This document shows positions 13,393 to 35,511 of a DNA stretch of 64,000 bases, one piece after another; within the stretch, counting starts at the first letter, position 1, and the number at the start of each line of letters is the position of its first letter. This DNA comes from a virus, in IMG/VR virus record IMGVR_UViG_3300046517_001864, positions 3,880-67,879 of that record; one strand, given 5' to 3'. The notes under the pieces are model-generated. The model searched no databases and was not told the origin of the DNA. It worked only from the letters and a program-made list of their open reading frames with translations. Both the position numbers and the translations under genes were made by a program.

Positions 13393-13439
13393 TTCATTTT
13401 GTGGGGAGTGTAGACTGGGTCAGGCGGGTTCGATTCCCG
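13393..13439 (+). ncRNA. tRNA-like minihelix (acceptor stem plus T-arm only) / truncated tRNA remnant
   Basis: GGGGAGT...CGGGTTCGATTCCCG...ACTCCCC: 7-bp acceptor-like stem with canonical T-arm (GGTTCGATTCC) but only 47 nt and no anticodon arm; sits in an 0.85-kb ORF-poor gap. Confidence 0.3.
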
Positions 13440-13764: not shown

Positions 13765-13944
13765 ATGGAATACCATTCATTATGTGATCACTGCGGGGAT
13801 CTGTTGATCGAAGATCATCGTCCCGCGCCGGGAGAATCGGTACATTGTTCTAGCTGTGGGATTACGTTCCCGCATGGACTTCGGGATTCCCATTGGCGGG
13901 AATGGTCTGATCCCTCCAAACCCGATTGGGCAGGTTGCGCGTGA
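13765..13944 (+). CDS. small zinc-ribbon protein (59 aa; CDHC...CSSC)
   Basis: Internal ATG of ORF-track 13669..13944; two CxxC pairs. Confidence 0.3.
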   Translation: MEYHSLCDHCGDLLIEDHRPAPGESVHCSSCGITFPHGLRDSHWREWSDPSKPDWAGCA

Positions 13945-14092
13945 ATGGTCTATGGGAGTTTTTCTTCTGCCCCGCTCACGGTGTGTTGCGATTCGTGGAC
14001 GGCGCTCATCTAACCTACGCTTGGGTATGGGTGCGTCATTCGAGCTACTACGTCCAGGCGTGGTTGTTATCACGTAAGGAGATTGTAAAATA

Positions 14093-14854
14093 ATGTACGC
14101 GTCTTACATTCCCGACAAAGGTACGATAGTCATGTACCCGGATTACAACTCCGCGATGGCGGATCGATTCCCGTATGAAGAAGTTGATTCCGACGCGTAT
14201 AACAAACTCATCCCAACGTTAGAATCAAACAGTCGGGTTTGTTTGACGTGTAGACGCGCTCGACTCGAACACTTCCGGGATCGATGTCGAACAATCGCGG
14301 ATTATGTAACAGGAGGACTTCCAACCGGCCATCCGATTGTTCGTCCACTTGTGGATATCATCATCTGTTCGTGTGGGGTCTCCGTAAATCGGGTGAAGAT
14401 CAACGGGAAAACTCGGTGCTACAAAGCCACCCGAGAGGAAATTCGTCGTTCGATCACAGGGAGATTAGCCACTACCCTGGCGAACGTACCTCAACCGAAT
14501 TGGACACTTGAGGCCCCAGGTCGATTCGCGCCAGACGTGTTACCTCGGCCAAGAGCTGGACGGACTCCGAGAACCGATCGGGATAATCTTGTCTTCAACG
14601 CAAGAATCGAGACAGATAACCTCACCCCACTTCAACAACGGGTTCGTCAGCTTACAGAAGCTATCATCGATCGTGATCGTCCAATGTTTCAGTGGGATCC
14701 GATGGTACGTCCGACAGCACCTCAACCGGAACCAGCCGAACCAAGAGTAACCGATCCGCCTCGTGTAGCGGATAACCAATTCACGGCTCTCCGACTAGAT
14801 GAGACAACCTTCGAACGGGTGGATGATGACATTCAACGAGAGGAGGAAGATTAA
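14093..14854 (+). CDS. hypothetical protein (253 aa), first gene of amidoligase cluster
   Basis: SD AAGGAGATTGTAAAATAATG; acidic C-terminus. Confidence 0.55.
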   Translation: MYASYIPDKGTIVMYPDYNSAMADRFPYEEVDSDAYNKLIPTLESNSRVCLTCRRARLEHFRDRCRTIADYVTGGLPTGHPIVRPLVDIIICSCGVSVNRVKINGKTRCYKATREEIRRSITGRLATTLANVPQPNWTLEAPGRFAPDVLPRPRAGRTPRTDRDNLVFNARIETDNLTPLQQRVRQLTEAIIDRDRPMFQWDPMVRPTAPQPEPAEPRVTDPPRVADNQFTALRLDETTFERVDDDIQREEED

Positions 14855-14857
14855 CCC

Positions 14858-15559
14858 ATGATTCACGGACGTTTTCACGGCGTAACAATCGTCAAACTCT
14901 CGCGAGCTGAGGGGGTGGAGATGCTAGCTTACCTCGGTTGGACTCGGATGATGTATGAAAAACTCATCCGACCGAAAGCTACGACCGAAAGTCCAACGGT
15001 CAAGCGACTACTTTCCTCTGTGCATGGGATTGAAACATGTATTCGAATGTACATACCTGGCGGTGGGTGGACCCCCGTAGATGCGCTGTACCATGAACGG
15101 TTAAACCAAAACAACCTCCTCCAACCAGGAGCAGCGGATGAAGGGTTATCGATTCTGTTAGGTTTTTCCGAAGAATTCATTCGGTCCATTAGCTCATACC
15201 CGAATCTATTCTCCGCTCCAACCGTCACCCGATTGTGTAAATCCGTTGATCGAAGGTTTCCGATCCGGGAATACCACCCCAAATCCGCTACGCTCGAACA
15301 ACGAACTCATTCCATCGAGTTAGTTGTACAACTATTCCAAATCCTCTCTGGGAATAACTCCGGAGAACTTTCCGGCGCGAATGATCGACAGTTGTTGTAC
15401 AACCAATCAACCGGGTTGGTGGAGATGTTGCGGATCTCCCACGATTTGAAGAACATCATCGCAAAGATCGATCATTGGACCGAAGTACTTGGTGCAGAAC
15501 GTCATGTATCGAAAGAGTTTGTTACAAAGACATTAAACACAAGGAGTATTTGTGGTTAA
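14858..15559 (+). CDS. hypothetical protein (233 aa)
   Basis: Tightly packed between 14093 gene and amidoligase (overlaps amidoligase start by 8 nt). Confidence 0.55.
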   Translation: MIHGRFHGVTIVKLSRAEGVEMLAYLGWTRMMYEKLIRPKATTESPTVKRLLSSVHGIETCIRMYIPGGGWTPVDALYHERLNQNNLLQPGAADEGLSILLGFSEEFIRSISSYPNLFSAPTVTRLCKSVDRRFPIREYHPKSATLEQRTHSIELVVQLFQILSGNNSGELSGANDRQLLYNQSTGLVEMLRISHDLKNIIAKIDHWTEVLGAERHVSKEFVTKTLNTRSICG

Positions 15560-16757
15560 CAAGGAAAAATTCTGCGTCAACTGCCTTCGTCGGGCTCGGG
15601 ATACGGAAAAAGCTTTAAAAACCGTCCACTCCCATCCGCTACGGCTCCCGAAGGAACACTGCGCGATCTGCCATCGATGCTCTTCTTGCCGGTGTATCTG
15701 TGTCATCTGCACGAAGTGTAAAGCACGTGTTGCAATGGCCCCAACGAAGTACTGCTCGCACTGTCGGATGTGTAAGAAGTGCGACTCATGCAGGAAAATG
15801 CCGCACTACCTTTCCACCGATCGGTGGGTGGGGACGCGGACATCTTCGCTCATCAACCCGTTGAATCGTACGCTTGGGTTGGAACTTGAGATTGCAAACT
15901 GGGGTACGTTGGAGAACTACCTCATGAACTACGCTCACTACGACCGAGCGCATGATTGGTCGGTGAAGCCATCTGAATCAGAGATGGTCCTCCAACCGTT
16001 AAAAGGGGATTACTTCCTCAAAGCGATGATGGAGTTGGCCGTAACCCTTGCAAAATCAAAAGCTTCGGTGAATGAAACCTGTGCGTTACACGTACACGTC
16101 GGAGGAACGGAGTTGTCATACTGGGAACTTCGACGTCTCCTGCGGGTATACGCGAAGCTTGAGCAAGAGATATACGATTATCTCATTTTACCACATCGGA
16201 GGGACACTCCGACGGTAGTTCACTACTGTCAGATGATGACTAAGCCTCACATCCATTGTGATCGATGTGATCGGTACGATCAACAGTATCCCCGAACCCG
16301 TCGGGTGCTGGAGGATCTCCACACTACGGTAGCTCGAATGGACCGGGCGCAGACCACCACAGATCTCAAAGCATGTTTTTTGAAGATGCTGTATAACATC
16401 CCCCGACCTTCGGAGAAGTATTCGAAAGAGCATCTTCCATCTCGGCTCCAAACCCTCCAAACCCACAAAGGCGGGAGATACGAATGGTGCCGGTACGTTG
16501 GGCTCAACCTCCACGCGTGGCAGTATCGTGGTACGGTCGAATGGCGAATGAAAGAAGCCACTACCCAGCTTGACGAGCTGATCTGCTGGCCGTTGTGGTG
16601 TGGGTGGTTTGTGGAAACCATCACCAAAATGACCGAGAAAGACTCCACCCGTTGGTGGACGTTGATCGAATTCACCGAGCGGTACATGCCAAAGTATCTC
16701 ACTGCATGGGTGAGTAATAAAGTTTCGCAAAGAAAGGTAGGACCGACGTTGTCATGA
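15552..16757 (+). CDS. amidoligase of the GCS2/YbdK (glutamine synthetase-like) fold with N-terminal multi-Cys zinc-ribbon region
   Basis: 'TLGLELEIAN' (G-x-E-x-E start motif) and 'ALHVHVG' (HVHVG motif) typical of gamma-glutamyl-cysteine-ligase-2-type amidoligases; N-terminal CxxC x6 cluster. Confidence 0.55.
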   Translation: MVNKEKFCVNCLRRARDTEKALKTVHSHPLRLPKEHCAICHRCSSCRCICVICTKCKARVAMAPTKYCSHCRMCKKCDSCRKMPHYLSTDRWVGTRTSSLINPLNRTLGLELEIANWGTLENYLMNYAHYDRAHDWSVKPSESEMVLQPLKGDYFLKAMMELAVTLAKSKASVNETCALHVHVGGTELSYWELRRLLRVYAKLEQEIYDYLILPHRRDTPTVVHYCQMMTKPHIHCDRCDRYDQQYPRTRRVLEDLHTTVARMDRAQTTTDLKACFLKMLYNIPRPSEKYSKEHLPSRLQTLQTHKGGRYEWCRYVGLNLHAWQYRGTVEWRMKEATTQLDELICWPLWCGWFVETITKMTEKDSTRWWTLIEFTERYMPKYLTAWVSNKVSQRKVGPTLS

Positions 16758-16948
16758 GTAAACTTTGGACTCCAAAGGACTACTGGCGTAAGGAAATCAT
16801 CGACGTCGCACTGAAAGAGATCGATCGAAACCAGGCGATTGTCTACTATCATCGAATGGACTGTCCACATCCGGAGTTTGTTCCGAAAGGAAACTTCTCG
16901 TCAGTCTGTGCGGTCTGTGGAAGAAATAAGGAGTTTATTAAATCATGA
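16754..16948 (+). CDS. small Cys/His protein (64 aa)
   Basis: ATGA overlaps on both sides; CPHPEF...CAVCGRNK. Confidence 0.4.
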   Translation: MSKLWTPKDYWRKEIIDVALKEIDRNQAIVYYHRMDCPHPEFVPKGNFSSVCAVCGRNKEFIKS

Positions 16949-17157
16949 AAACCCAATTCTGTTCCTTTTGTGGGAAAGACACGCTCCACAACCCATTGAA
17001 GAAAACCCCAAAAGGTGAACAGTTCTACCGTTGTGTGGTATGCGGGAACCCCCGCCGGTACAATGGAAAGAACTTTGCAATAGCTCTTGCGCCGGGTTCG
17101 AGAGCTGTGAACCTTCCCTACCCGATCCCACCGAAAGGTGCGTTGGGGGCATCATGA
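16945..17157 (+). CDS. zinc-ribbon protein (70 aa; CSFCGK...CVVCGNP)
   Basis: Two CxxC pairs; ATGA coupling. Confidence 0.45.
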   Translation: MKTQFCSFCGKDTLHNPLKKTPKGEQFYRCVVCGNPRRYNGKNFAIALAPGSRAVNLPYPIPPKGALGAS

Positions 17158-17447
17158 TGTTTGGATACAAACAAGGAGAAATCGTTGAAACCGATACCGG
17201 ACCTCACTTTGTGGTCCAAAATTCTTGCTACGGAAACATTGGCTTCGCATCGCTCAACCCCGTGGAAGGTCCGCCGACGAAAACGCAGCAGGAGTACCGG
17301 GACTATCACGCCGAGCAGAAGCGACGAGCGGAAGCCAAAGCCGCTGCGCTCCGGGAACGAATCCGTAATCGAATAGAACCCGATCTATCCGAAGAAAAAT
17401 TAATCGACCTTATCGTGGACCTTATCCACGAAGAAAGCGAGTACTAA
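17154..17447 (+). CDS. hypothetical protein (97 aa; ORF-track start 17031 likely too far upstream)
   Basis: ATG at 17154 overlaps upstream stop (ATGA); helical Glu/Arg-rich C-terminus. Confidence 0.4.
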   Translation: MMFGYKQGEIVETDTGPHFVVQNSCYGNIGFASLNPVEGPPTKTQQEYRDYHAEQKRRAEAKAAALRERIRNRIEPDLSEEKLIDLIVDLIHEESEY

Positions 17448-17450
17448 CTC

Positions 17451-18482
17451 ATGTGTGGAATATTCGGCTTTAGCCGTGTAACGGATGTGACCAAACAGAT
17501 GGCCATTCCGTTGATGTGGGAGATGGAGGATCGAGGACGGGACTCTTGGGGCTGCTCCAACGGAATCGAATGGATCAAACAGATCGGTCCGATCACCAAA
17601 ACGTGGCGGAAATACGAATCCGAATGGCACCAGTGGGAACGAGCAATCTTTCACACCCGTGCTGCTTCGCAGGGGAAGGTCTCCATCGAAAACCAACACC
17701 CGTTCCGTATTGACCATACGGAAGAGGATCAATCCGTCCGCACCCTCGTCGGAATCCACAACGGTGTCGTCTCCAATCATGACCAACTTAACGCCAAGTA
17801 CAAACGGGATTTTGATTGTGATACCCCGCATATCTACATGGCCCTCGCGGGGTTCTCTCCTACTCAGGAGATTCACGGGTATGGTAACCTGGCGTGGTAT
17901 GATTACTCGACCACAAACCCGACTCCAATCCTGCACTTCCTCCACTTTAACGCAGGGAACCTGAACGTCGCGAAGCTCGAATCTGGTGAGATGGTGTTCT
18001 GTTCCACGAAAGATCCCATCGATCGTGCTGCGGATTTCGCAGGAACCAAAATCGATCGGTACTTTCACCTGGAAGGGGATAAGATTTACTGGGTGGAACT
18101 GAACTACCAGGATGTCCCAGGATCGGACATGCTCATCGCTGGGCCGAAGCAATCCTTCGGCGGGAGGTCGATTCAAGGAACTGGTTGCGCTACTCCTTGG
18201 GATGGGCACCGTCCAGTTGGGTTACCCTTGTACGAGCACATCGCCGGAGCGAATCCCCGCAGGATGGGTCCTTCCCAAGTCCGGAACACGAATATATCCG
18301 AACTTGGCTCAGAGGATCGACAGAACAACATCTGCCTTAACAATCAATGCAAGAACAAAGTGAAACAATCTCGGCGGAAACAGCTCCTCTGTGAGACCTG
18401 CCTCGTAGCGGTAAAACAAAACCTCGCTTACATGACCACAATTCATGATCGGGTTCGTGGCCGAATGGGAGGTGCTGAATGA
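17451..18482 (+). CDS. class-II (Ntn) glutamine amidotransferase domain protein with C-terminal Cys cluster
   Basis: N-terminus MCGIFGF (catalytic Cys2 as in PurF/AsnB/GlmS); C-terminal CLNNQC...CETC. Confidence 0.65.
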   Translation: MCGIFGFSRVTDVTKQMAIPLMWEMEDRGRDSWGCSNGIEWIKQIGPITKTWRKYESEWHQWERAIFHTRAASQGKVSIENQHPFRIDHTEEDQSVRTLVGIHNGVVSNHDQLNAKYKRDFDCDTPHIYMALAGFSPTQEIHGYGNLAWYDYSTTNPTPILHFLHFNAGNLNVAKLESGEMVFCSTKDPIDRAADFAGTKIDRYFHLEGDKIYWVELNYQDVPGSDMLIAGPKQSFGGRSIQGTGCATPWDGHRPVGLPLYEHIAGANPRRMGPSQVRNTNISELGSEDRQNNICLNNQCKNKVKQSRRKQLLCETCLVAVKQNLAYMTTIHDRVRGRMGGAE

Positions 18483-18808
18483 ATGCAGGAAGACCTACCG
18501 GCTCGGTTGCGACGCCGGGTCGCATTCTTCGAAAGAGCCTCCAGGACTCGGCGAGGCTTGCTTCGCGTACGAGAAAATTACTTGAAGGGCGATTAGTAGC
18601 GATTGAGAAACGTCTCGCGGATGATCTAATTGGGGAGAACACTGACGGGTTGGTGGATCAGCTTCTAAAGATCATGTCCGCTCTCGACCGGACTGTCGAA
18701 CAAACCGGGCGGTTGCTAACGCAGAAACATACTCCGGTGGAAACCACCGAATCCGCCTCACCGACTGATATCATGCACGAACTTACGAAAGGAAAGAAAC
18801 CAAAATGA
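18479..18808 (+). CDS. hypothetical protein (109 aa)
   Basis: ATGA-coupled to GATase gene. Confidence 0.45.
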   Translation: MNAGRPTGSVATPGRILRKSLQDSARLASRTRKLLEGRLVAIEKRLADDLIGENTDGLVDQLLKIMSALDRTVEQTGRLLTQKHTPVETTESASPTDIMHELTKGKKPK

Positions 18809-19302
18809 GTACGGTTTACGAATACGCAACGGGACAGTTTCACATTCACGTGAAACTTGCGGGAGAGTTGGACAAGATCGAACTTTTCCACGCGATCATC
18901 GAAAAGATCGACGGGTCTTGGCCTTGGGGTCCTTCGAAAGGTAACCACGGCACGGTTCGGGTTTGTAGGAAGTGCAAGGGATTCCTTCTATCCAACCCCC
19001 GCTTCGCGCCACAGGATCTCAAAGCCGCAGGCGAACAGGCCGGGATTCATATCAAAATCTACGGTTATTCCCCTCAGCTCAACTGTTTCGAAGGAACCGA
19101 ATACCAGCACACCGAATCCATCGACCGTGTGGCCTGCCGTGCTCTCTACGGACACAAACCGAAACGGATCACGGTGCTGGGTGGGAAGCTTTGGATCGGG
19201 GATTCTACCCCAACAACCGGCCCTCGGTTGATCGAAGCTGTGGATCGAAAGGTCATTGAACTTCCTTCGGTCGCTCCGAAGGACAGCCAGTTGGTGAACT
19301 GA
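18805..19302 (+). CDS. hypothetical protein (165 aa)
   Basis: ATGA-coupled. Confidence 0.5.
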   Translation: MSTVYEYATGQFHIHVKLAGELDKIELFHAIIEKIDGSWPWGPSKGNHGTVRVCRKCKGFLLSNPRFAPQDLKAAGEQAGIHIKIYGYSPQLNCFEGTEYQHTESIDRVACRALYGHKPKRITVLGGKLWIGDSTPTTGPRLIEAVDRKVIELPSVAPKDSQLVN

Positions 19303-19471
19303 GATGTTCCACAAACAATTCTATCGCGGTCTCGACGGTCACTGGTATCTCCGAGGGTTATTCCACATCCTCCTTTGGCGGTCACCAGGACGAACTAAAC
19401 CAGGGAGCTTTGTTGGGTTATGCGGGAACTTATCGCCGGAGTAATCCTCCTCGAACTACTTCTCGCGCCGG

Positions 19472-20320
19472 TTGAACATTGGTTACATAGGAGAATATAT
19501 GGGAATACACGTCATCGGGCCGCAGGACTGGGAAACAGTCATTGCTTTAAATGACATGCTTCGGCATGTCCCGGAGGAAGGGACGTTCAAGCTGGGCGGA
19601 CGTCATTTCGAAGCGCAGGGGCAGTTCAAACGGTTTGACAAAGCCGGGGTCCCGACCGTCGAGTGGACCACGAATCTCACTACAGCGAAAGGATGGGTCC
19701 GAAACGGAGCAGCGGTGCTTGGACGAGACCGGTACCATTCTCGGGGGGAGGATATTGTTCTAGTATCCCACACTGCTGATATCACAGACGCTTGGGAAAG
19801 TAAGTCCGTCTGGACCAAGTTTGTCCCCTCCCAAGCCGAATGGCGATTCCATATCGTTAACGGGCAGTCCATCTCCCGGGATCTGAAGGTCTTCAACCGA
19901 CCCGGGCAGGGGCGAGGGTCCCTCGCGAGCATTAGAGCCCGCGCATGGGATTGGTCGGCCCGACATGATGTTGAGCCCCCAGCCGAGGCTCGCCGAGCTG
20001 CTGTAGCGGCTGTGGACGCGTTGGAGGGGTATACCCACGGTGCGGTCGACCTGCTTATCGACATGGAGTTCCGTCCAGTCGTGCTTGAAGTCAACCGCTG
20101 TCCGGGGATGGATGCCTACACCCGTGAGCGGTGGTGTAACGCGATTCGAAAGTTTGTACGATCTCACGGGCGGGGTAACGCGTCCGCTGAAACAGCAGCG
20201 GCCCGTCCACCAGTTCCAGCTTGGGTTCATCGACCCTCGACGGTCATGGCTCGGACCGAAACCGGGCGAATTTCGTCCCGGTCGAGAGAGGAATTCTACG
20301 AAGGCGTTGAGGTTGTATAA
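19472..20320 (+). CDS. ATP-grasp fold protein (candidate amide ligase)
   Basis: 'GAVDLLIDMEFRPVVLEVNRCPGMD' matches the ATP-grasp 'D...ExN..PG' C-terminal motif; alternative start at 19499 (SD AGGAGAA). Confidence 0.45.
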   Translation: MNIGYIGEYMGIHVIGPQDWETVIALNDMLRHVPEEGTFKLGGRHFEAQGQFKRFDKAGVPTVEWTTNLTTAKGWVRNGAAVLGRDRYHSRGEDIVLVSHTADITDAWESKSVWTKFVPSQAEWRFHIVNGQSISRDLKVFNRPGQGRGSLASIRARAWDWSARHDVEPPAEARRAAVAAVDALEGYTHGAVDLLIDMEFRPVVLEVNRCPGMDAYTRERWCNAIRKFVRSHGRGNASAETAAARPPVPAWVHRPSTVMARTETGRISSRSREEFYEGVEVV

Positions 20321-25803: not shown

Positions 25804-26166
25804 ATGAGGAATACTCTAACACAGGTTGAAGATCGGATATGCGAAGCGAAAGCCTCGACCCATAGTTCCGATAGAGCATCTCTTCTCACACGTCGTAGGT
25901 GGTTGCGGACACTGGTAATGTTGTCCTTAGGTGTATTCGGGATTCGTAATGCATCCTCAGGTGCTTCCACCCCAACGTGCGAGGATACGATTAACAAGTT
26001 TCAATGTTTGTTCAACGCGTGGGTGGAGCAGGTGAAGGAAAACAATCCTAACATCCTCGATGCGAAGCATCCCACAGCTATCCAAGACGAAATCGCCACG
26101 TGGCAAGTGGTACGTCACGAGTGGCGGGGGTTTGAGAAGCAGATTAACAAGATGTATGGAATTTAA
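25804..26166 (+). CDS. hypothetical protein (120 aa)
   Basis: SD GGAGAAATAATG; stop overlaps polymerase start (TAATG). Confidence 0.45.
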   Translation: MRNTLTQVEDRICEAKASTHSSDRASLLTRRRWLRTLVMLSLGVFGIRNASSGASTPTCEDTINKFQCLFNAWVEQVKENNPNILDAKHPTAIQDEIATWQVVRHEWRGFEKQINKMYGI

Positions 26167-28838
26167 TGTCAGAATTCAACAAAGCATTCATCGAACGTAA
26201 ACTCGCACCGAAGCCAGAGTTCTGCTCCCGGTGCCCCATCAACGAATTTACCGAAGGTTACGTCCCACTCGAACGAGGATCGGGAACGGAGCTTTGGGTA
26301 GGCGAGGCGGCAGGGGATGAGGAGGCAAGTCGTGGAAAACCTTTCATTGGCGGTGCTGGTAGTTGGCTTAACAGTATGCTTCAGTCTGCTAGGATTTCTC
26401 GTAGCAGCATTAGTCTTATTAACACTATCGGCTGTCATCCACCTGACAATATCTACCCTGGTTCAGATAAGTGGAATTTTACTGATCGTGCCGTTGCTCG
26501 GCAGGCGATTGATTACTGTCGTCAACAACACCTTGAACCAGCGTTAGTCCAGCTCAAACCAACCCGGATCGTGGCTCTTGGCAACGAGGCGATGAAAGCT
26601 GTTACGCCTCGGCAGGGTGTATTGCAATGGCGCGGATCGCCGTTACCACTGAAGGGAGCTCTGCACGCAGGCCCCCGGGTGGTACCAACCTTACACCCTG
26701 CTTTCCTAATGCGACAGGCGGGATTGTTCTCAGTCGCGGTGAAAGACTTACGTCGTGGGTTGGAATTACCTCCGGAGAATTATGATCTATACCCTAGCAT
26801 TGATACTGTTAAAGCGTTTACTGCGACTACGTTTTCTTTTGACTTCGAGTGGGACACGCTCAATAACATCACGATGTGTGGTCTCAGTGATCGATGGTAC
26901 CATGCGATTGTTGTGCCGTTTGTTCAACCTTTTATCACCGAGCTTAAGAGGATATTCGAAGCAGCAGAATGCCTCATTGGTCACAATATCGTCGATGCCG
27001 ATACGAGCTACTTCGATTCGTTGGGATGGAAGGTAACGGCGAGGCTTCATGATACGATGCTCGCGCAGCATCTGATCCAGCCCGACATGCGGCATGGACT
27101 TGGGTTTGTCGCGTCAGTGTTTTCGTCAAAGGTGTTTTGGAAAGGTAGTGGGGAGGAAACAGAAGATGATGCTGGAAATATTCTTCCAACCGGAGCTCAA
27201 TGGCGGACGTGGGATAGCCCCGACGCAATACCTCGGGAGTTTGGAGGTTACGGAGGCTGTCGTTCGAGCGATGAAGCTTGGAGATTATATAACGCTAGAG
27301 ACACCGATGGGACACTCCAATGCGAAGCTCGTATCTTTCGGACCCTCCGGGATTTCGGGCAGGAGTTCGTCTATACGAACGTCTCGGTCCCAGCGGCGTA
27401 CATCTGCCGAGACATCAACCGAACAGGTCTCAGGATTAACCCCAACAAAGTCACTGAAATTAGGGATACACTCTCGCGAGAAATCTCCGCGACGGAAGCC
27501 CTCCTCCCGGAAGGGTTAGCAGCGTATGAAAAACCAATCACCAAACAAATTGAGGCTCCTGCTGGAACGTATGCGCCGAAAGTCTTACGGTGTAAGGGAA
27601 CTCGAAAAGCTGGAACAGTTCACGATCTGGTTGAGTGGACAGTATCCACTCCTGGAGTATGCGGATGTCCTACGTGTGGTAAGGAATTCTCTCCTAAACT
27701 TAAACAAGTTAAACGAATCAAAGTTCCAGGAACTAAACGGATTGTGCCGTGGAACAGCACGGCACAAGTAATCACGTATGCTAAAGCCAAAGGTTGTAAA
27801 GAAGTCCCGCACGCGAAGACCGGTAATTCTTCTGGAGACAAACGTGCCCGTAAAATTTGGGGCCGTGAACATACAGAATTCACCCTTGTGGATACTCTTA
27901 AGAGGCTTGTCACACAGCGAAATAGCTTCGCTAAAGAAGCATTGCAAGGTCTTGACTGGGTCAGGTTTCGCCTCGCAGTTACGGGTACTTCCGAAGGACG
28001 TCTCTCATGTTCTGGAGTCTATCCTGCGAACCTGAACCTCCAGAATCAACCCAAAGCGATCAAAAAGATCTTCATCCCTGATAAAGAAGGTTATGGAATT
28101 CTCTCCCATGATATCGTCCAAGGAGAAAACATGCTCACCGCATGGCTGGCGGAGGATTGGCCACGATGGGAGAGACTCAATACTCCGGGGTTTGATGAGC
28201 ATAGTTACATGGCTAGTCGGTTTTTCAATACCCCGGTTGGTCCAAATGACCCACTCAGAAAACCTGGTAAGGTTATCAATCACGGTCGGAATTACGGACT
28301 CGGTGAGCGGAAAACACAAGACTATCTGTCTTTGGAAGGATTCCAATTCTCGATTGCGGATATCCGAGAGATGATAAATATATGGAAAAAGGAAAACGCT
28401 CGTACCGCAGCATGGCAACAGGAGACCGTACACCTCGCACAGAAGCAAAGCTACCTCGACAATCCGTTCGGAAGACGGAGGTGGTTCCAAGGGCGAGACT
28501 TCGCTACCAAGGCATTGGCATTCTTACCGGCTTCGACACTAGCCGATATGGTTCTTCGAATGATGTTAGCTCACTACCCAGAGAGATTTGGATCAGAGAT
28601 TTTAAATTTAGGACTTGGTGTTTGTACATCGCTAATGGAGAACTGGCGTTTGGCTCTACAAGTCCACGACGATCTCGTATTCATCGGTCCAGATGAATCC
28701 CACCGCGAGATGGCCCAACGCACCCGAGCGGTGATGTCGCAGGAATGGAAAGAGCTTGGAGGTTTCCACTTCCGGGTGGAGACGAAGTATAGCACCACGA
28801 CATGGGGTGATGGGAAGGTTCTGGAGATGGTGGCATGA
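26166..28838 (+). CDS. family A DNA polymerase with N-terminal family-4 uracil-DNA-glycosylase-like domain and 3'-5' exonuclease domain
   Basis: N-term 'GEAAGDEEASRGKPFIGGAGSWLNSML' = UDG family-4 motif A, 'HPAFL' = motif B; 'FDFEWDT' exo I; 'RKPGKVINHGRNYGLG' = PolA motif B (RRxAKxxNFGxxYG); 'QVHDDLVF' = motif C. Confidence 0.9.
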   Translation: MSEFNKAFIERKLAPKPEFCSRCPINEFTEGYVPLERGSGTELWVGEAAGDEEASRGKPFIGGAGSWLNSMLQSARISRSSISLINTIGCHPPDNIYPGSDKWNFTDRAVARQAIDYCRQQHLEPALVQLKPTRIVALGNEAMKAVTPRQGVLQWRGSPLPLKGALHAGPRVVPTLHPAFLMRQAGLFSVAVKDLRRGLELPPENYDLYPSIDTVKAFTATTFSFDFEWDTLNNITMCGLSDRWYHAIVVPFVQPFITELKRIFEAAECLIGHNIVDADTSYFDSLGWKVTARLHDTMLAQHLIQPDMRHGLGFVASVFSSKVFWKGSGEETEDDAGNILPTGAQWRTWDSPDAIPREFGGYGGCRSSDEAWRLYNARDTDGTLQCEARIFRTLRDFGQEFVYTNVSVPAAYICRDINRTGLRINPNKVTEIRDTLSREISATEALLPEGLAAYEKPITKQIEAPAGTYAPKVLRCKGTRKAGTVHDLVEWTVSTPGVCGCPTCGKEFSPKLKQVKRIKVPGTKRIVPWNSTAQVITYAKAKGCKEVPHAKTGNSSGDKRARKIWGREHTEFTLVDTLKRLVTQRNSFAKEALQGLDWVRFRLAVTGTSEGRLSCSGVYPANLNLQNQPKAIKKIFIPDKEGYGILSHDIVQGENMLTAWLAEDWPRWERLNTPGFDEHSYMASRFFNTPVGPNDPLRKPGKVINHGRNYGLGERKTQDYLSLEGFQFSIADIREMINIWKKENARTAAWQQETVHLAQKQSYLDNPFGRRRWFQGRDFATKALAFLPASTLADMVLRMMLAHYPERFGSEILNLGLGVCTSLMENWRLALQVHDDLVFIGPDESHREMAQRTRAVMSQEWKELGGFHFRVETKYSTTTWGDGKVLEMVA

Positions 28839-29203: not shown

Positions 29204-29392
29204 ATGTCTCAGGAAGATCGGATAGCGGAGCTGGAACTCGCGTTGGAGAACCTGCTAGAGTGCTTTGAGGAAACCCCCACAGGGTTTGATATTGAAACCT
29301 CGGATGGGATAGGTCGGATAACCGAAGCCGCCGAGGAGATGGTTATTCAAGCTCGGGAGGCGTTGGATCACGACGATGCTACGGGAGAATAA
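29204..29392 (+). CDS. small acidic protein (62 aa)
   Basis: SD AAGGAGGGACACTAAGATG. Confidence 0.4.
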   Translation: MSQEDRIAELELALENLLECFEETPTGFDIETSDGIGRITEAAEEMVIQAREALDHDDATGE

Positions 29393-29853
29393 TGGCTGAT
29401 CAATTTGAAGTAGTAGTTACAGCGTTTATCTTTCAAGAAGATAAACTTCTCCTAACTCGGCGATCACCGAATAAAAAACGTTTCCCGGGATTATGGACCG
29501 TTCCAGGCGGGCATCTTGAGAAATCGGATTTTCAGAATCGTTCAAAAGATGGTGTGTATTGGTATGATGTTCTTGAGATTGCTCTACAACGAGAAGTACG
29601 AGAAGAAGTTGGTTTAGAAATCAATAATATTCGTGTTGTAGAGAATCTTGCAACTATCGATCCTTCTGGTGCGGTGCTAGTTTTATCTTGTACCGCGAAC
29701 TACGTTAGCGGAAATGTAACATTACAACAAGATGAAACAGATGCATTTGGTTGGGTAGAAAGAAATGAGGTTAAGAATTATGATCTTATCAGCGGTTTAC
29801 CGGAAGAAATCGAACGAGCGTTTGAAAGGCGAGTAAGTAATGCTGCGAATTAA
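29392..29853 (+). CDS. Nudix hydrolase
   Basis: 'LLLTRRSPNKKRFPGLWTVPGGHLE' plus Nudix box variant '...ALQREVREEVGLEI' (REUxEExGU). Confidence 0.7.
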   Translation: MADQFEVVVTAFIFQEDKLLLTRRSPNKKRFPGLWTVPGGHLEKSDFQNRSKDGVYWYDVLEIALQREVREEVGLEINNIRVVENLATIDPSGAVLVLSCTANYVSGNVTLQQDETDAFGWVERNEVKNYDLISGLPEEIERAFERRVSNAAN

Positions 29854-30028: not shown

Positions 30029-31235
30029 GATCCCCCTCCCTGAGGAATCGTTCCTCAACCTATGGGTTACCCGTTTCGAGAACACCGAGATCTGGCATTC
30101 GTGGAAGGTTGCCACGGGGCTTGCGATGATTGGTGCTGTACTGGGTCGAGACGCTATGTTCGACTACGGCGAAGTAACGCCTATCTGGCCAAATACTTCC
30201 GTAATTCTAATCGGCGAGTCGGGAGATGGGAAAGATACGATTATCGCGCCGAGCGAAGAAGTGCTACTCGCCTGCGGGATACAGCACGTCGCTGGAAAGA
30301 CAATCGAAGCGGTGAAGACGTCGTTGTTTAACATCGGAAAGACAGGTAAGAATGCTATCGGTTTTATCGCGGCTAAAGAACTATCTGAATTCCTTGGAAG
30401 CAAAGACTACCAAGCCGGACTCATTCAATCGCTTACGGATTTACTATCGAATAACAAGCTCGTTGATATCACCACCAAATCCGACCTCGCATTCGGACAA
30501 CCGAAGTACATCCGCAACCCGACGTTAACGATGTTTGGGGGATCGACGGTTGATTGGTTTCAATCCTCCCTGCCGGTAGATACGATGAAAGGCGGATTCC
30601 TCCCACGGTTTATCATCATGACCGAGTTCGATAAACGAGCTGCGAAGATGAAGATGATTGATAACCCGGGGAAGTACGAATCCACCGATCAACGCGATCG
30701 GGTCCGTGCTTCGAAAGGTGCGTTCCTGGATCAGATGAAAGCCCTTCGAAGAATGGTTGTGGAAAAAGGTCCGATTCGGTTCATGGATAATGAGGAAGGG
30801 GAGTATTACTTCAAGAACTGGTACGCGAATCGGTTCTCGTACTTCCCCCGTTCGATGAAAGCCTATGCGAATCGATCCGGGAATCTCATGCGGAAGGTCG
30901 CGATGCTCATGGCAGCGAGCCGTTGGCATACGTGGATCGATGAGGTCGACTACGCATTCTCGTCGGAGTTCATCCGATACGGGGCGGGACGGCTCGAAGA
31001 TACAATCCTCTCCACCTCCCGAGAGGTGATCGTTGGGAAGGATATCCTTGCGTTACTCCCAGCAGATCAAATGACGATCCTTCGCAAACTCTCAAAAGTT
31101 CACACGATGTTCTGGGTAAAAAACGGCATCCGGTTCCTCGTGGAGTCAGGTCAGGTAGTAACCCAAAAGGGTGAGTTGGTAGAAGTGAAAGAAGAACAAA
31201 AGGAGAATAATGTCAGCACCACTACATCGGCTTAA
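30009..31235 (+). CDS. P-loop NTPase (408 aa); helicase-/VirE-like or kinase, family unresolved
   Basis: Walker A-like 'VILIGESGDGKDT'; no other motif recognised. Confidence 0.4.
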   Translation: MNLAEYKIPLPEESFLNLWVTRFENTEIWHSWKVATGLAMIGAVLGRDAMFDYGEVTPIWPNTSVILIGESGDGKDTIIAPSEEVLLACGIQHVAGKTIEAVKTSLFNIGKTGKNAIGFIAAKELSEFLGSKDYQAGLIQSLTDLLSNNKLVDITTKSDLAFGQPKYIRNPTLTMFGGSTVDWFQSSLPVDTMKGGFLPRFIIMTEFDKRAAKMKMIDNPGKYESTDQRDRVRASKGAFLDQMKALRRMVVEKGPIRFMDNEEGEYYFKNWYANRFSYFPRSMKAYANRSGNLMRKVAMLMAASRWHTWIDEVDYAFSSEFIRYGAGRLEDTILSTSREVIVGKDILALLPADQMTILRKLSKVHTMFWVKNGIRFLVESGQVVTQKGELVEVKEEQKENNVSTTTSA

Positions 31236-31881
31236 AAAGGCCGATATCGTATGGTTAGGTGGACACTCATGCAAAGCCCACCAGCATCGTTACATTGAAC
31301 ACTACAAGTGTTACTTGAAAGAACATCCGGAACAGGATGAACGGCGGGCTTACTTTGATATCGAGGCGAGCAACCTTGATGCGGATTTTGGAATCATGCT
31401 TTCGTGGGCAATCAAACCCTCGGATAGCAAGGTAGTAATCGGAGATGTACTTACACCAACTGATGTCAAACGTGGGTATGAGGATAAGAGAATTGTCCAA
31501 TCAGCTATTGATGCCCTTGGACAGTTTGATCGAGTTGTTACCTATTACGGAACTGGTTTTGATTTACCTTTTCTTCGTGCTAGGGCTCTTATCGTTGGTG
31601 TGGAATTTCCAACCTTTGGGACCCTTAAGCACAAGGATCTCTACTACACCGTAAAGTCGAAGTTCAAACTGAGCTCACGACGGTTGGAGAACGCCTGCCG
31701 ACATCTGATCGGGCAGACGGACAAAACTCGAATCGATGCGAAGTACTGGCGGAACGGGGTCCGGGGCGATCCAAAGAGTCTGAAGTACATCTACGAACAT
31801 AATCGTTACGATGTGCTGGACTTGGAGAAGTTGTATGATAAAATCATTAGCTTTGGAAAGGTGAACAACACGAGTATATGA
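31210..31881 (+). CDS. DEDDh 3'-5' exonuclease (DnaQ-like)
   Basis: Exo I 'YFDIEASNL', Exo II 'YYGTGFDLPFL', Exo III 'YEHNRYDVLDLEKLY'. Confidence 0.65.
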   Translation: MSAPLHRLKKADIVWLGGHSCKAHQHRYIEHYKCYLKEHPEQDERRAYFDIEASNLDADFGIMLSWAIKPSDSKVVIGDVLTPTDVKRGYEDKRIVQSAIDALGQFDRVVTYYGTGFDLPFLRARALIVGVEFPTFGTLKHKDLYYTVKSKFKLSSRRLENACRHLIGQTDKTRIDAKYWRNGVRGDPKSLKYIYEHNRYDVLDLEKLYDKIISFGKVNNTSI

Positions 31882-32243
31882 GTCAGGAGATTCTTGCTAA
31901 GGGAGTTTATCCCCCAGCAGCTCCTGCCGGTACCAAACACGACTCTGGAAAGGACCCATGGGATCTTGCCCCATGGGACTCCTTTCGGGAGGTCGTACGG
32001 GTGCTGGCTTTTGGGGCTACGAAATATGCTCCGCGTAACTGGGAGAAAGGGATCGTATTCTCTCGGTTGTACGCGGCGACGATCCGACATCTTACAGCGT
32101 GGTGGAACGGAGAGGATGTAGATCCTGAGACGAAAACATCCCATCTCGCTAACGCGATGTGTGACGTCGGGTTCCTACTCGCGTTTGTTATTCGAGGAAG
32201 AAAGGATTTAGATGACAGGCCAAGAAGCAGTTCAGTATCTTAA
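31878..32243 (+). CDS. hypothetical protein (121 aa), resembles small phage domain family found beside nucleotide pyrophosphohydrolases (SGKDPWDL...FGATKY...RH...GED.D.E...HL)
   Basis: ATGA-coupled; motif resemblance only, family name uncertain. Confidence 0.4.
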   Translation: MSQEILAKGVYPPAAPAGTKHDSGKDPWDLAPWDSFREVVRVLAFGATKYAPRNWEKGIVFSRLYAATIRHLTAWWNGEDVDPETKTSHLANAMCDVGFLLAFVIRGRKDLDDRPRSSSVS

Positions 32244-32748
32244 CTCTCAAGCGGAACGGTTACCCAAGGAGGTAGCCACTCTGTGTTATGAGATTACTAA
32301 CGCGAAGGAGTTTGCCGAAGGGTGGGCTTCGACTTCGAAGCATCATGCCTATGAAGGCTCGCTCCCGATCCACGTTGCGGAGGTGATGGAAGTAGCCCTT
32401 GCAATAGCAGAGACGAAAGCCACAAAGGAAGTAAACCTCACCGTGTTAATCCCAGCAGTGATCTTTCATGATTGTATGAAAGTGAGAGATAACCCCGGTG
32501 GAGTCAAGTCTGATTACTATTCTCAGATCTACCACATCGCTGGAAGCTACGCCTGCTGGCAGAACCTTGCTCAAGGAATGTTTCCCCCTGAGTACGTTGA
32601 CGCTGTGGGGCATTGCATACTTGCACATCACGGGCGGAGGGATTGGAAAGCTGTGGTGGAGCCCCAGACAATCGAAGCATGGATACTTCACTTCGCGGAT
32701 ATGGTGTCGGCGGGGTATGGTAAGAATCGAGAAGCCCCAGATGCGTAA
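32212..32748 (+). CDS. HD-domain phosphohydrolase
   Basis: H...HVAEV / FHDCMK / HCILAHHG / LHFADM spacing typical of HD metal-dependent phosphohydrolases. Confidence 0.7.
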   Translation: MTGQEAVQYLNSQAERLPKEVATLCYEITNAKEFAEGWASTSKHHAYEGSLPIHVAEVMEVALAIAETKATKEVNLTVLIPAVIFHDCMKVRDNPGGVKSDYYSQIYHIAGSYACWQNLAQGMFPPEYVDAVGHCILAHHGRRDWKAVVEPQTIEAWILHFADMVSAGYGKNREAPDA

Positions 32749-33325
32749 GAAGATCTCCTTCGATTGTGATGGAGTGATTGCGGAGGGCGGGTGGGTGGAT
32801 GTACCCGACCGCACCAATTCGTTCTATTTCAAAAAATCCCCGTTACCAGAAGCCATTCCTTCTCTAGAATGGCTTTCCACGGTGTATGACATCTACGTAA
32901 TTTCCACCCGAGGACATGAGGATGCCAACCTCGGACTTCGAGCGTGGCTGCACTTCGGCCTACGGCTCGAACTGGATACAATCGCGGGGGTAATCACATA
33001 CCCCAACTCCCCAGATAAGGACAGAGATGCAGTTACCAAAATGGATAAATCCGCTGTTGTTCGCGCTCTTGGTATTTGTTGCCACTTTGATGATGATCCA
33101 GTTATGGTTGAAGCCTGTGGTAGCGCCGGTGTTCTTGTGCCGTCCGATATGCCCGTGAGTATCGCAGCGGCGAATCGACTACCTACCGCAAAGGACTGGG
33201 ATACGATTCGGACGTTTCTCACCACGCCAGGGATGACCTTGCATGGGTCGAATGGAATGTCGATCGTTAGCCCAGCGGATGTAAAGAAGGAATACCCTAA
33301 ACTCAAACAAGAGGTGGTGATGTAA
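32741..33325 (+). CDS. HAD-superfamily phosphatase (5'-nucleotidase-like or sugar-phosphate phosphatase)
   Basis: Motif I 'ISFDCDGVIA' (DxDGV), later 'CHFDDDP'; ATGCGTAA overlap with HD gene. Confidence 0.55.
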   Translation: MRKKISFDCDGVIAEGGWVDVPDRTNSFYFKKSPLPEAIPSLEWLSTVYDIYVISTRGHEDANLGLRAWLHFGLRLELDTIAGVITYPNSPDKDRDAVTKMDKSAVVRALGICCHFDDDPVMVEACGSAGVLVPSDMPVSIAAANRLPTAKDWDTIRTFLTTPGMTLHGSNGMSIVSPADVKKEYPKLKQEVVM

Positions 33326-33471
33326 TGTTCTTCCTACGATCCCTTTGGATGACAATCCTTGCGGCGTTCCTGATCCTCCTTGCCACGTGGTGTATGGAGG
33401 ATCTAATCGGACGAACCGCTCCGATGATCCCCCAGCAGAACTACGACATGAGCGAGGATAGACATGTTTGA
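33325..33471 (+). CDS. 48-aa membrane micro-protein (MFFLRSLWMTILAAFLILLATW...)
   Basis: TAATG coupling to HAD gene; 8-nt overlap with SPFH gene; single TM helix. Confidence 0.3.
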   Translation: MFFLRSLWMTILAAFLILLATWCMEDLIGRTAPMIPQQNYDMSEDRHV

Positions 33472-33988
33472 TCGGCTGATCCAATTCTTCATCGACTCAC
33501 TCAAACTCTTCCAGTTCTTCGCCGTGGTGCGAAGCTACGAAGGTGGGGTGATACTTCGGTTTGGAAAATTCCACCGCATGGGGAACCTCGGCTTCAACTG
33601 GCTTTGGCCATTCTCAATCGAAGAACTTCACTTTGATCACATCGTCTTGCGAAGCTCCGCCGTCGGACCACAATCCGTCACAACCAAAGACGGTGTGAAC
33701 GCGGTGATATCCATCGTAGTGATGTTTCGAATCGATGACGTGAAACAATGGTTGCTCGAACTCGATCACGGCCCGACTGTACTCGACAACCTCGCCTGCG
33801 GACTGATGTCCCGTAAGGTGATGGATCACACCTGGGATGAGCTCGTAGCGATGGATCTCGCGGATGAACTCGCGAAGATCGTTCGACGTCAGGCGAAGAA
33901 ACTCGGGGTGGATATCATCCAAGTGCAGGTAACAGATTTTACGAGGAGCCTATCTTTCCGGTTGATTGGTCACCAACTGATGGGATAG
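33464..33988 (+). CDS. SPFH/band-7 (stomatin/prohibitin/HflK-like) domain protein
   Basis: 'VVRSYEGGVILRFGKFHRM', '...VTTKDGVNAVISIVVMFRIDDV' match SPFH core pattern (V..ge.gvv.rfGk ... TkD...v.vd..v.yrI.D). Confidence 0.6.
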   Translation: MFDRLIQFFIDSLKLFQFFAVVRSYEGGVILRFGKFHRMGNLGFNWLWPFSIEELHFDHIVLRSSAVGPQSVTTKDGVNAVISIVVMFRIDDVKQWLLELDHGPTVLDNLACGLMSRKVMDHTWDELVAMDLADELAKIVRRQAKKLGVDIIQVQVTDFTRSLSFRLIGHQLMG

Positions 33989-34584: not shown

Positions 34585-35511
34585 TTAATACTGATTAACC
34601 ATCGGCGGAGTGCCGGAAGAATTCCCACCCACAGAAGGATTCGTAGGGTTGTCACGATAACTCTCCACAGTGCCAGTCTTTTCCCCTCGGCCCGCTCCGC
34701 TTCGCAGCATATCCGGACGAGGTGTGTTAAACTCCGTATCCCCATGACGTTGCAAGTAAACTCCTGGACGTAGCCCTCCTCGGGCTTGTAGGTTTACTCC
34801 CTCCTCGTATTTCCACTTCCCGTCATCCCCGACCGTAAGTCGGTCGGTTGGGGCGGTACCTTTCGAATGAGTTAACGTATCCCCAGAACGATCCACGGAG
34901 TAGTCCTTCGGGAACCCTGCCTTCGCCCAAGCTTGGATGGTTCGCATATCCCCGGAGTGAGCGGCGACGATTGAAACCAGCGACGGGTGCCGAGCGGATT
35001 CTTTCATAATCTGCTCCATTGCCGGGAGCATCCGCTGTTCGTAATCCCGTTGGCTCTCCCCTCGTTGGCCGGTGAGCGGGGATTCCCCGGGAGGTTCGTT
35101 GGTGGGGGTTTGGGTTTTAAGCCGTTTTACGAGCTCCTGTACGTCGGTCGACCGTTCCCCTTCCAGACTCCCCATCCGTTGCGGGGCGAGCCCAGGAACC
35201 TCGGTAATCGTAGGTTTAAACGGCGCGAGGTGTTGGGCGAGGATCTGGGAGGTCTCCTTCGTACGAGCCCAGGGGGATGAATAGATTTTAACCTGACGAG
35301 GTCGGCCAGACTCCGCAAGGCGTTGACCGAAGTGAGACCCCACCTGATGGATCTGGTTACGACCTTCATCCAGGAGGTTGAAGTTACTTGCCCCACGCTC
35401 ACGAACGAACGGATCGGGTCCCATATCCTGCGGAGGCGTAGCCGGACGAAGCTGTGGGGGTTTGCCAAGTTGTCCGAGAAGATCAAATGCGCGGCTCATG
35501 GTTTTAACCAA
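34585..35511 (-). CDS. histidine-phosphatase-superfamily-like protein with motifs in noncanonical order
   Basis: 'VYLQRHGDTEFNT' (RHG catalytic motif) near C-terminus; 'KIYSSPWARTKETSQIL' and 'IVAAHSGDMRTI' earlier in sequence. Confidence 0.4.
   Translation of the reverse strand: MVKTMSRAFDLLGQLGKPPQLRPATPPQDMGPDPFVRERGASNFNLLDEGRNQIHQVGSHFGQRLAESGRPRQVKIYSSPWARTKETSQILAQHLAPFKPTITEVPGLAPQRMGSLEGERSTDVQELVKRLKTQTPTNEPPGESPLTGQRGESQRDYEQRMLPAMEQIMKESARHPSLVSIVAAHSGDMRTIQAWAKAGFPKDYSVDRSGDTLTHSKGTAPTDRLTVGDDGKWKYEEGVNLQARGGLRPGVYLQRHGDTEFNTPRPDMLRSGAGRGEKTGTVESYRDNPTNPSVGGNSSGTPPMVNQY

What the first reader, a model, noticed from the sequence alone, without database searches (positions are those of the whole stretch)
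31878..33325. HD phosphohydrolase, HAD phosphatase and small conserved phage domain in one coupled cassette (nucleotide-pool editing?)
Three overlapping genes are linked by ATGA/ATGCGTAA overlaps:
- a 121-aa protein with SGKDPWDL...GATKY...RH...GED motif
- an HD-domain hydrolase (H..HD..H..H..D)
- a HAD phosphatase (DxDGV)

A Nudix hydrolase (29392..29853) lies 2 kb upstream. HD dNTPases and pyrophosphohydrolases are the enzymes phages use to remove a canonical dNTP when the genome carries a substituted base. Alternatively the HAD enzyme could be a GmhB-like heptose bisphosphate phosphatase tied to the heptose genes.
Basis: partly seen in the sequence, partly recalled or inferred. Interest (0 to 1): 0.6.

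Follow-up and report, generated by a model that had tools for sequence, protein, structure and literature searches.

The report
Phage dNTP-degrading gene pair plus nuclease
An uncultivated phage carries three back-to-back phosphoesterase genes; the conserved unit is a dNTP pyrophosphatase followed by a deoxynucleotidase-like phosphatase, which probably drains selected DNA precursors, and nothing found links it to an altered DNA base or to heptose metabolism.

Summary
The three genes are real and sit at the stated coordinates, in the replication operon of an uncultivated tailed phage (~68 kb).

- **Gene A** (31878-32243) is a stand-alone DUF5664/PF18909 protein. One family member is a proven dATP/dUTP/dGTP-to-dNMP pyrophosphohydrolase.
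- **Gene C** (32741-33325) has a HAD fold with all four motifs. Its closest relatives are NT5C-type 5'(3')-deoxyribonucleotidases, not GmhB. It has no Pfam model and no homolog in 50,697 GenBank phages.

Related contigs show that A followed by C is the conserved unit. It holds in 10 of 11 independent contigs (nine beside the window), with two very different DUF5664 subtypes in the A slot. B is inserted only in the window's sublineage. The Nudix gene is a low-GC recent addition. Overlapping junctions run through the whole operon, so they do not mark a cassette.

The best reading is a two-step irreversible drain, dNTP to dNMP to deoxynucleoside, with B as an accessory nuclease. No base-modification genes were found. 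This is a modest new variant of a known kind of system. Substrates are untested.

The parts
31878..32243 (+). Gene A: stand-alone DUF5664 / PF18909 (dGTP_diPhyd_N) protein, 121 aa; predicted dNTP diphosphohydrolase (dNTP -> dNMP + PPi)
   Evidence: Pfam E 1e-29 over the full model; phrog_801 'dATP/dGTP pyrophosphohydrolase' E 8e-35. All 89 close relatives are stand-alone proteins with only PF18909. Activity of the family member from phage Wayne: PMC12884076.
32212..32748 (+). Gene B: YhaM-type HD metal-dependent phosphoesterase domain without an OB fold, 178 aa; predicted 3'-exonuclease or phosphodiesterase. A lineage-specific insertion between A and C.
32741..33325 (+). Gene C: divergent NT5C-like HAD phosphatase, 194 aa, with a clade-specific C-terminal extension (about residues 150-194, W153...FLTTPG...SP178); predicted 5'(3')-deoxyribonucleotidase
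31210..31881 (+). Upstream DnaQ-like 3'-5' exonuclease gene (RNase_H_2 / PolB-exo-like), joined to A by an ATGA overlap. Context, not part of the conserved pair.
   Evidence: PF13482 E 1.5e-16; phrog_403. Replaced by a metallophosphatase in L008 and L009.
29392..29853 (+). Nudix hydrolase gene; a low-GC accessory gene, not part of the conserved unit
   Evidence: PF00293 E 4e-17. GC 0.396 against 0.529 for the window. Absent from L004.
33325..33988 (+). Downstream coupled genes: a 48-aa hydrophobic (predicted transmembrane) peptide (33325-33471) and an SPFH/Band_7 protein (33464-33988). Context.

Best explanation
This segment of a phage replication operon encodes three metal-dependent phosphoesterases. 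The evolutionarily linked unit is gene A plus gene C.

- Gene A is a DUF5664 dNTP pyrophosphohydrolase.
- Gene C is an NT5C-like HAD 5'(3')-deoxyribonucleotidase.

Proposed mechanism (inferred, not shown): A cleaves one or a few dNTPs to dNMP and pyrophosphate. The family precedent is dATP, dUTP and dGTP. C then removes the remaining phosphate to give the deoxynucleoside. Host nucleotide kinases can then no longer rebuild the triphosphate, so the drain is irreversible. This is a two-enzyme equivalent of a one-step dNTP triphosphohydrolase.

Gene B is an OB-less YhaM-type HD domain that was inserted between A and C in this sublineage. It most likely acts as a 3'-exonuclease or oligonucleotide phosphodiesterase that releases (d)NMPs, which C can also dephosphorylate. 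This would resemble host-DNA disposal by phage T5 (A1 and Dmp).

Shown here: gene models, folds, intact catalytic motifs, family relationships and synteny. Inferred: substrates, the order of the reactions, and the biological purpose (pool sanitation or rebalancing versus host-nucleotide disposal).
For: - **Gene A:** full-length PF18909 match. A stand-alone family member from phage Wayne converts dATP, dUTP and dGTP to dNMP, with kinetics reported in PMC12884076.
- **Synteny:** A is directly upstream of C in L004 (with B between), L005, L008, L011, L012, L013, L016, L017 and L019. In L009 a 72-aa helix-turn-helix gene intervenes. A and C overlap in L005, L008, L011, L012, L013 and L019; in L016 and L017 a gap of about 110 nt separates them.
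- **The link persists while its surroundings change.** The A slot ranges from 81% identity to undetectable by BLASTP, which indicates two DUF5664 subtypes. The exonuclease is swapped for a metallophosphatase in some relatives. Band_7 comes and goes. C itself has diverged to 27% identity in L005.
- **Precedents for adjacent or fused two-step dNTP elimination:** DutZ and DmtZ (PMC12884076), and T5 Dmp, which dephosphorylates dNMPs released from host DNA (bioRxiv 10.64898/2026.04.02.716235).
Against: - No enzyme activity was measured for any of the three proteins.
- C scores below Pfam's NT5C threshold. Its nearest outgroups score only 17-23 bits against a cutoff of 24.8.
- C has a much shorter insert between motifs I and II than 3bwv, plus a unique C-terminal extension. 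Its substrate could therefore differ, for example a polynucleotide 3'-phosphate or a sugar phosphate.
- The relatives span only one phage clade (PolA 45-88% identical), so A-C adjacency could partly reflect inherited gene order.
- Remote C-like genes (L010, L024) have no DUF5664 gene nearby.
- B lacks the OB domain that YhaM needs to bind ssDNA (PMC12107432), so nuclease activity is uncertain.
- Degrading dNTPs inside a replication operon needs a selectivity that cannot be read from the sequence.
Confidence: 0.5

Rival explanations
1. One reading: the cassette removes a canonical dNTP because the phage genome carries a substituted base, as DatZ and MazZ do in 2-aminoadenine phages.
For: DUF5664 proteins take part in dATP and dGTP removal in Z-genome phages (PMC12884076). 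A pyrophosphatase plus a dNMP-degrading enzyme is the same logic as DutZ and DmtZ. Most ORFs of the window have no known function. An unexplained amidoligase cluster lies at 10.8-20.3 kb.
Against: No PurZ, thymidylate-synthase-like hydroxymethylase, DpdA or 7-deazaguanine genes, Dut or dCMP deaminase was found in any ORF of 110 aa or more. The HD protein is YhaM-like, not DatZ-like. DUF5664 occurs in 1194 GenBank phage records, including phages with canonical genomes (PMC12884076).
Confidence: 0.1
2. Nucleic-acid end processing or repair. C is a polynucleotide 3'-phosphatase, like the HAD domain of T4 Pnkp. B is a 3'-exonuclease that trims ends. Together they heal DNA or RNA ends damaged by host nucleases, and A is only a neighbour.
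Against: NT5C hits outnumber repair-type HAD hits 30 to 6, and the NT5C-like structure ranks first. No kinase or ligase partner was found in the window. C is linked to A, not to B, across relatives.
Confidence: 0.12
3. Counter-defence. The enzymes destroy nucleotide-derived immune signals or toxic nucleotides made by host defence systems, or B degrades signalling oligonucleotides.
For: The genes are accessory and variable: B and Nudix come and go. All are phosphoesterases that act on nucleotides. Phage enzymes that degrade immune nucleotides are a known class (general knowledge, not tested here).
Confidence: 0.1
4. No functional unit. Three independent housekeeping genes (a MazG-like sanitiser, a nuclease and a phosphatase) sit together only because this clade inherited that gene order in a tightly packed operon.
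For: Overlapping junctions occur throughout the operon. All relatives with the A-C pair belong to one clade. Remote C-like genes lack a neighbouring A.
Against: A-C adjacency survives replacement of the DUF5664 subtype, replacement of the upstream gene, insertions, and divergence of C to 27% identity in L005.
Confidence: 0.15
5. One reading: the HAD enzyme is a GmhB-like heptose-1,7-bisphosphate phosphatase that works with heptose genes in the window.
Against: NCBIfam, which holds models for named bacterial enzymes, gives no hit at E up to 1. GmhB ranks 17th, within the generic HAD plateau. No cysteine is conserved that could form a zinc-binding loop. The sugar genes are 30 kb away on the other strand, and no GmhA or heptose nucleotidyltransferase was found. 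C is linked to DUF5664 in all relatives.
Confidence: 0.02

Closest known systems
DUF5664 (PF18909) dNTP diphosphohydrolases, e.g. Arthrobacter phage Wayne DUF5664-1 and the DUF5664-DUF550 enzyme of Acinetobacter phage SH-Ab 15497
   Same: Gene A matches the whole Pfam domain and is stand-alone like the Wayne enzyme. The expected chemistry is dNTP to dNMP plus PPi.
   Different: The phage has no PurZ or PurZ0 and no DUF550 fusion. Substrate preference is unknown. The partner gene here is a HAD phosphatase rather than DmtZ or DatZ.
DutZ plus DmtZ two-step dATP elimination in PurZ0 phages (PMC12884076)
   Same: A dNTP pyrophosphatase gene is adjacent to, or fused with, a gene for an enzyme that destroys the resulting dNMP.
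   Different: The second enzyme there is an NDT-family N-glycosidase or transferase that releases the base. Here it is a HAD phosphatase predicted to release the nucleoside. There is no evidence of a Z genome.
NT5C family 5'(3')-deoxyribonucleotidases (PF06941; human cdN and mdN; 3bwv from Staphylococcus)
   Same: HAD fold, DxDGV[IL]A[DE] motif I and DDxP motif IV. Best structural and profile match.
   Different: Below the Pfam threshold. Much shorter cap insert. A conserved 45-aa C-terminal extension. Only 114 relatives among 1.84 billion representatives, and none in cultured phages.
YhaM / Cbf1 3'-5' exonuclease (PDB 9h3f, 9o7t)
   Different: It lacks the N-terminal OB fold that YhaM needs to bind ssDNA (PMC12107432). 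It is 178 aa, against about 313-321 aa.
Phage T5 host-DNA disposal (A1 metallophosphatase plus Dmp 5'-dNMP phosphatase)
   Same: The concept is the same: nuclease-released dNMPs are dephosphorylated to nucleosides by a phage enzyme, which alters pools.
   Different: The gene families and operon differ. No homology to the T5 proteins was tested here. From memory, not checked here, Dmp is an HD-family enzyme rather than a HAD.

Membership tests
PF18909 / DUF5664 dNTP diphosphohydrolase (gene A) | Full-length match to the Pfam model above the gathering score | tested here: met
   102.9 bits against a cutoff of 27; model positions 3-99 of 99
PF18909 / DUF5664 dNTP diphosphohydrolase (gene A) | dNTP to dNMP plus PPi activity | not testable with these tools
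   Shown only for the phage Wayne homolog (PMC12884076)
DatZ / YfbR-like or dGTPase-type HD dNTP hydrolases (gene B) | Sequence or structural similarity to HD dNTPases or 5'-nucleotidases (PF12917, PF13023, dGTPase fold) | tested here: not met
YhaM 3'-exonuclease (gene B) | HD catalytic module with conserved metal ligands | tested here: met
YhaM 3'-exonuclease (gene B) | N-terminal OB-fold nucleic-acid-binding domain | tested here: not met
   The protein is 178 aa and aligns only to YhaM residues from about 141 onward. NCBIfam YhaM scores 49.7 bits against a cutoff of 460. Only the distant homolog P0022 carries PF01336
HD-GYP / c-di-NMP phosphodiesterases (gene B) | HD-GYP-type fold and motifs | tested here: not met
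HAD superfamily phosphatase (gene C) | Rossmannoid HAD fold with motifs I-IV (DxD, S/T, K, DD) | tested here: met
NT5C 5'(3')-deoxyribonucleotidase, PF06941 (gene C) | Match to the family model above the gathering score | tested here: not met
   No Pfam hit for C itself. The nearest outgroups score 17-23 bits against a cutoff of 24.8
NT5C 5'(3')-deoxyribonucleotidase, PF06941 (gene C) | Closest relationship by profile and by structure | tested here: met
NT5C 5'(3')-deoxyribonucleotidase, PF06941 (gene C) | dNMP phosphatase activity | not testable with these tools
   Needs an enzyme assay
GmhB heptose-1,7-bisphosphate phosphatase (gene C) | Match to GmhB or histidinol-phosphatase-type HAD models, and a zinc-binding Cys/His loop | tested here: not met
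Z-genome (PurZ) nucleotide-editing system | PurZ or PurZ0 adenylosuccinate-synthetase homolog, with DatZ, MazZ or DutZ | tested here: not met
   None of these Pfam families was found in any ORF of 110 aa or more in the 64-kb window

The most novel reading that the evidence does not exclude
The conserved pair of DUF5664 and an NT5C-like HAD is a previously unrecognised, dedicated two-enzyme 'dNTP-to-nucleoside' eliminator. It would mark an entire uncultivated phage clade whose DNA contains a non-canonical base made by still-unannotated genes, for example the amidoligase, GATase and ATP-grasp cluster at 10.8-20.3 kb. The clade-specific C-terminal extension of C would mediate a complex with the pyrophosphatase.
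Probability: 0.07. Interest if true: 0.8.

Novelty: new variant of a known kind. Interest (0 to 1): 0.38.

Why it matters
If A and C do act in sequence, they form a second natural design for irreversibly removing a dNTP during infection: a pyrophosphatase followed by a nucleotidase. The known designs are one-step triphosphohydrolases (DatZ) and the DutZ and DmtZ pair.

The analysis also defines a small HAD family that has no annotation in Pfam, NCBIfam or GenBank phages. It shows as well that the YhaM catalytic domain circulates in phages without its OB fold.

Practically, it corrects an attractive but unsupported inference that an HD protein, a Nudix protein and a HAD protein together imply a modified genome.

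Tried and rejected
- **Nucleotide search.** Megablast of 24 kb around the locus against GenBank phages found nothing.
- **tblastn against GenBank phages.** C has no match. B has only 13 weak matches, mostly YhaM-like sequences in records from Firmicutes hosts. PolA is at best 24% identical. No cultured relative is therefore available for annotation transfer.
- **PDB sequence search with A.** It gave only spurious ankyrin/DARPin matches to the GKDPWDLA stretch, which I rejected as chance.
- **IMG/VR scan for C.** It returned only three loci. The broad alignment A4 was too diverse to scan with. A look-up of the remote relative P0173 gave a 922-bp contig with no context.
- **GmhB and DatZ hypotheses.** Both were tested and rejected.
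- **Nudix as part of the unit.** Rejected: its GC content is 0.396 and it is absent from L004.
- **Gene overlaps as evidence for a cassette.** Rejected, because overlaps are operon-wide.
- **Fusions of DUF5664 with HAD or HD domains.** None were found among 89 close relatives.

Full report
**1. Observation**

The ORF table and the sequence confirm three consecutive + strand genes.
- A: 31878-32243, 121 aa.
- B: 32212-32748, 178 aa.
- C: 32741-33325, 194 aa. Its start is the ATG at 32741 inside ATGCGTAA.

The junctions differ slightly from the description.
- The ATGA overlap joins the upstream exonuclease gene to A.
- A and B overlap by 32 nt.
- B and C overlap by 8 nt.

From the polymerase gene (26166) to the Band_7 gene (33988), 10 of the 11 junctions overlap. 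Overlap therefore characterises the whole operon, not a three-gene cassette.

The window is a tailed-phage genome. It encodes a UDG-PolA fusion, a DUF3987 primase-like protein, a DnaQ-like exonuclease, an SU10-type adaptor and a glucosaminidase. It has no nucleotide-level relative among 50,697 GenBank phage records. Its polymerase is at best 24% identical to the closest GenBank hit.

**2. Gene A**

A matches PF18909 (dGTP_diPhyd_N, formerly DUF5664) over the full model at E 1e-29. It also matches phrog_801, 'dATP/dGTP pyrophosphohydrolase'.

A 2026 paper (PMC12884076) purified the stand-alone DUF5664 protein of Arthrobacter phage Wayne. It converts dATP, dUTP and dGTP to the monophosphates (kcat/Km for dATP 2.4e4 M-1 s-1).

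The domain is very common. Homologs occur in 1194 GenBank phage records. The same paper notes DUF5664-like proteins in phages with canonical genomes. All 89 close relatives of A are stand-alone proteins. The presence of A alone is therefore not evidence for a modified genome.

**3. Gene B**

Pfam reports only the generic HD domain. More specific comparisons all point to YhaM.
- The best PDB sequence match is the HD module of the 3'-exonuclease YhaM (9h3f, E 1.5e-12).
- NCBIfam's YhaM model matches at E 2.7e-13, but far below its cutoff because only the C-terminal part aligns.
- dNTP triphosphohydrolases, SAMHD1-like proteins and HD-GYP or PgpH enzymes score 8-10.
- All histidine and aspartate metal ligands are invariant in 22 homologs.

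B lacks the OB fold. In YhaM the OB fold is required for ssDNA binding (PMC12107432). B is therefore a YhaM-type catalytic module whose substrate is uncertain. It is not a DatZ-like dNTPase and not a cyclic-dinucleotide enzyme.

**4. Gene C**

C has no Pfam or NCBIfam hit and only a weak PHROG hit of unknown function. It has no homolog in GenBank phages.

Fifty-eight metagenomic homologs conserve the HAD motifs: D8xD10, S55/T56, K103 and D117-D118. They also conserve a C-terminal extension, W153...FLTTPG...SP178.

Three independent lines place C beside the NT5C-type deoxyribonucleotidases.
- The family profile finds only 3bwv in the PDB (E 0.004). The alignment is collinear at motif I (DxDxVLA[DE]) and motif IV (DDxP).
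- A profile search of 1.84 billion representatives finds only 114 relatives. I scanned 86 sequences (85 of these remote hits plus the window's own C, which matches no family). Thirty match PF06941 NT5C (best E 1e-36), and at most 7 match any other HAD family.

The closest outgroups reach only 17-23 bits against the NT5C cutoff of 24.8. C is therefore an NT5C-related family that lies outside the curated model.

**5. Synteny**

I fetched contigs that encode homologs of B and C. I then searched them with the window proteins and with an HMM of A.

A DUF5664 gene lies directly upstream of C in L004 (with B between), L005, L008, L011, L012, L013, L016, L017 and L019.
- A and C overlap in L005, L008, L011, L012, L013 and L019.
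- In L016 and L017 a gap of about 110 nt separates them.
- In L009 a 72-aa helix-turn-helix gene intervenes.

The link persists while its surroundings change.
- PolA is 45-88% identical across these contigs.
- C drops to 27% identity in L005.
- The A slot ranges from 81% identity to undetectable by BLASTP. L008, L012, L016, L017 and L019 carry a different DUF5664 subtype, which precomputed Pfam still calls PF18909 in L012.
- The upstream exonuclease is replaced by a metallophosphatase in L008 and L009.
- Band_7 is present in some relatives and absent in others.

B lies between A and C only in the window, L001 and L004. In L005 and L006 it sits elsewhere in the replication module. In L003 it is next to an RlaP gene. 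It is absent within 8 kb of C in L011, L012 and L013.

The Nudix gene has a GC content of 0.396, against 0.529 for the window. It is missing from L004.

Remote C-like genes (L010, L024) have no DUF5664 neighbour.

**6. Mechanism**

The conserved unit is A plus C. The most economical reading is sequential catabolism: A converts a dNTP to dNMP plus PPi, and C converts the dNMP to the deoxynucleoside plus Pi. Removing the last phosphate stops host nucleotide kinases from rebuilding the triphosphate, so the drain is irreversible.

Two precedents exist for such logic in phages.
- The adjacent or fused DutZ and DmtZ pair of PurZ0 phages (PMC12884076).
- T5 Dmp, which dephosphorylates dNMPs released from host DNA.

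B would add an exonuclease or oligonucleotide phosphodiesterase that feeds (d)NMPs to C.

Which nucleotide is targeted, and why, is inference. The purpose could be sanitation of dUTP or damaged dNTPs, pool rebalancing, host shut-off, or exclusion of a canonical base.

I found no gene for synthesising a non-canonical base in any ORF of 110 aa or more. Most ORFs are of unknown function, however.

**7. Verdict**

Nucleotide-pool manipulation is plausible, but the HD protein is a nuclease-type domain. The GmhB idea fails. The Nudix gene is unrelated. A modified genome is unsupported.
- The novelty is modest but real: an unannotated NT5C-like HAD family tightly linked to DUF5664 in an uncultivated phage clade, and an OB-less YhaM domain in phages.

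Noticed in passing
window 29392-29853 (+): The Nudix gene has a GC content of 0.396, against 0.529 for the window, and is absent from the closest relative L004. It looks like a recently acquired accessory gene rather than part of the nucleotide cluster.
   Followed up: partly
window 10876-20320 (+): A cluster of amide-bond-forming enzymes: a COOH-NH2 ligase-like gene (10876-12231, phrog_3815), Amidoligase_2 (15552-16757), a class-II glutamine amidotransferase (17451-18482) and a RimK-like ATP-grasp gene (19472-20320). Amidoligase_2 and GATase_6 also occur in the related contig L005. The function in the phage is unknown.
   Followed up: no
window 34585-35511 (-); L004, L012, L019; L009 10206-14372 (-): A histidine-phosphatase (His_Phos_1) protein ends the convergent late operon right next to the cluster and is conserved in relatives. 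In L009 the His_Phos-like region lies inside an open reading frame of about 4.2 kb. This may indicate a phosphatase domain of a large virion or ejected protein.
   Followed up: no
window 33325-33988 (+): A 48-aa hydrophobic (predicted transmembrane) peptide (TAATG overlap with C) and an SPFH/Band_7 protein (8-nt overlap) follow the cluster. The pair is present in L004 and L012 but absent in L011 and L013.
   Followed up: no
window 32212; L004 10001; L005 18161: The start codon of the gene after DUF5664 lies inside the codons of the conserved C-terminal DDRP motif (GATGAY). This holds in the window and L004, where the next gene is B, and in L005, where it is C. It suggests that B was inserted just after a pre-existing overlapping start.
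   Followed up: partly
window 26166-28838 (+): The family A DNA polymerase has an N-terminal UDG-like domain (Pfam on the 88%-identical L004 ortholog). It is only about 24% identical to the best hit among 50,697 GenBank phages, so this is a deeply divergent, uncultivated clade.
   Followed up: partly
window 737-1935 (-): A PfkB-like sugar kinase (only the C-terminal part matches) and a cupin resembling mannose-6-phosphate or lyxose isomerase. No GmhA or heptose nucleotidyltransferase was detected.
   Followed up: partly
L008 6721-7467 (+); L009 6597-7436 (+): In two relatives the slot of the DnaQ-like exonuclease upstream of DUF5664 is occupied by a calcineurin-like metallophosphatase (GCNHG...GDYVD...GNHD motifs).
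   Followed up: no
L013 9828-10970 (-): One relative (a 70-kb contig) carries a tyrosine integrase about 1.2 kb downstream of gene C. At least part of this clade may therefore be temperate.
   Followed up: no
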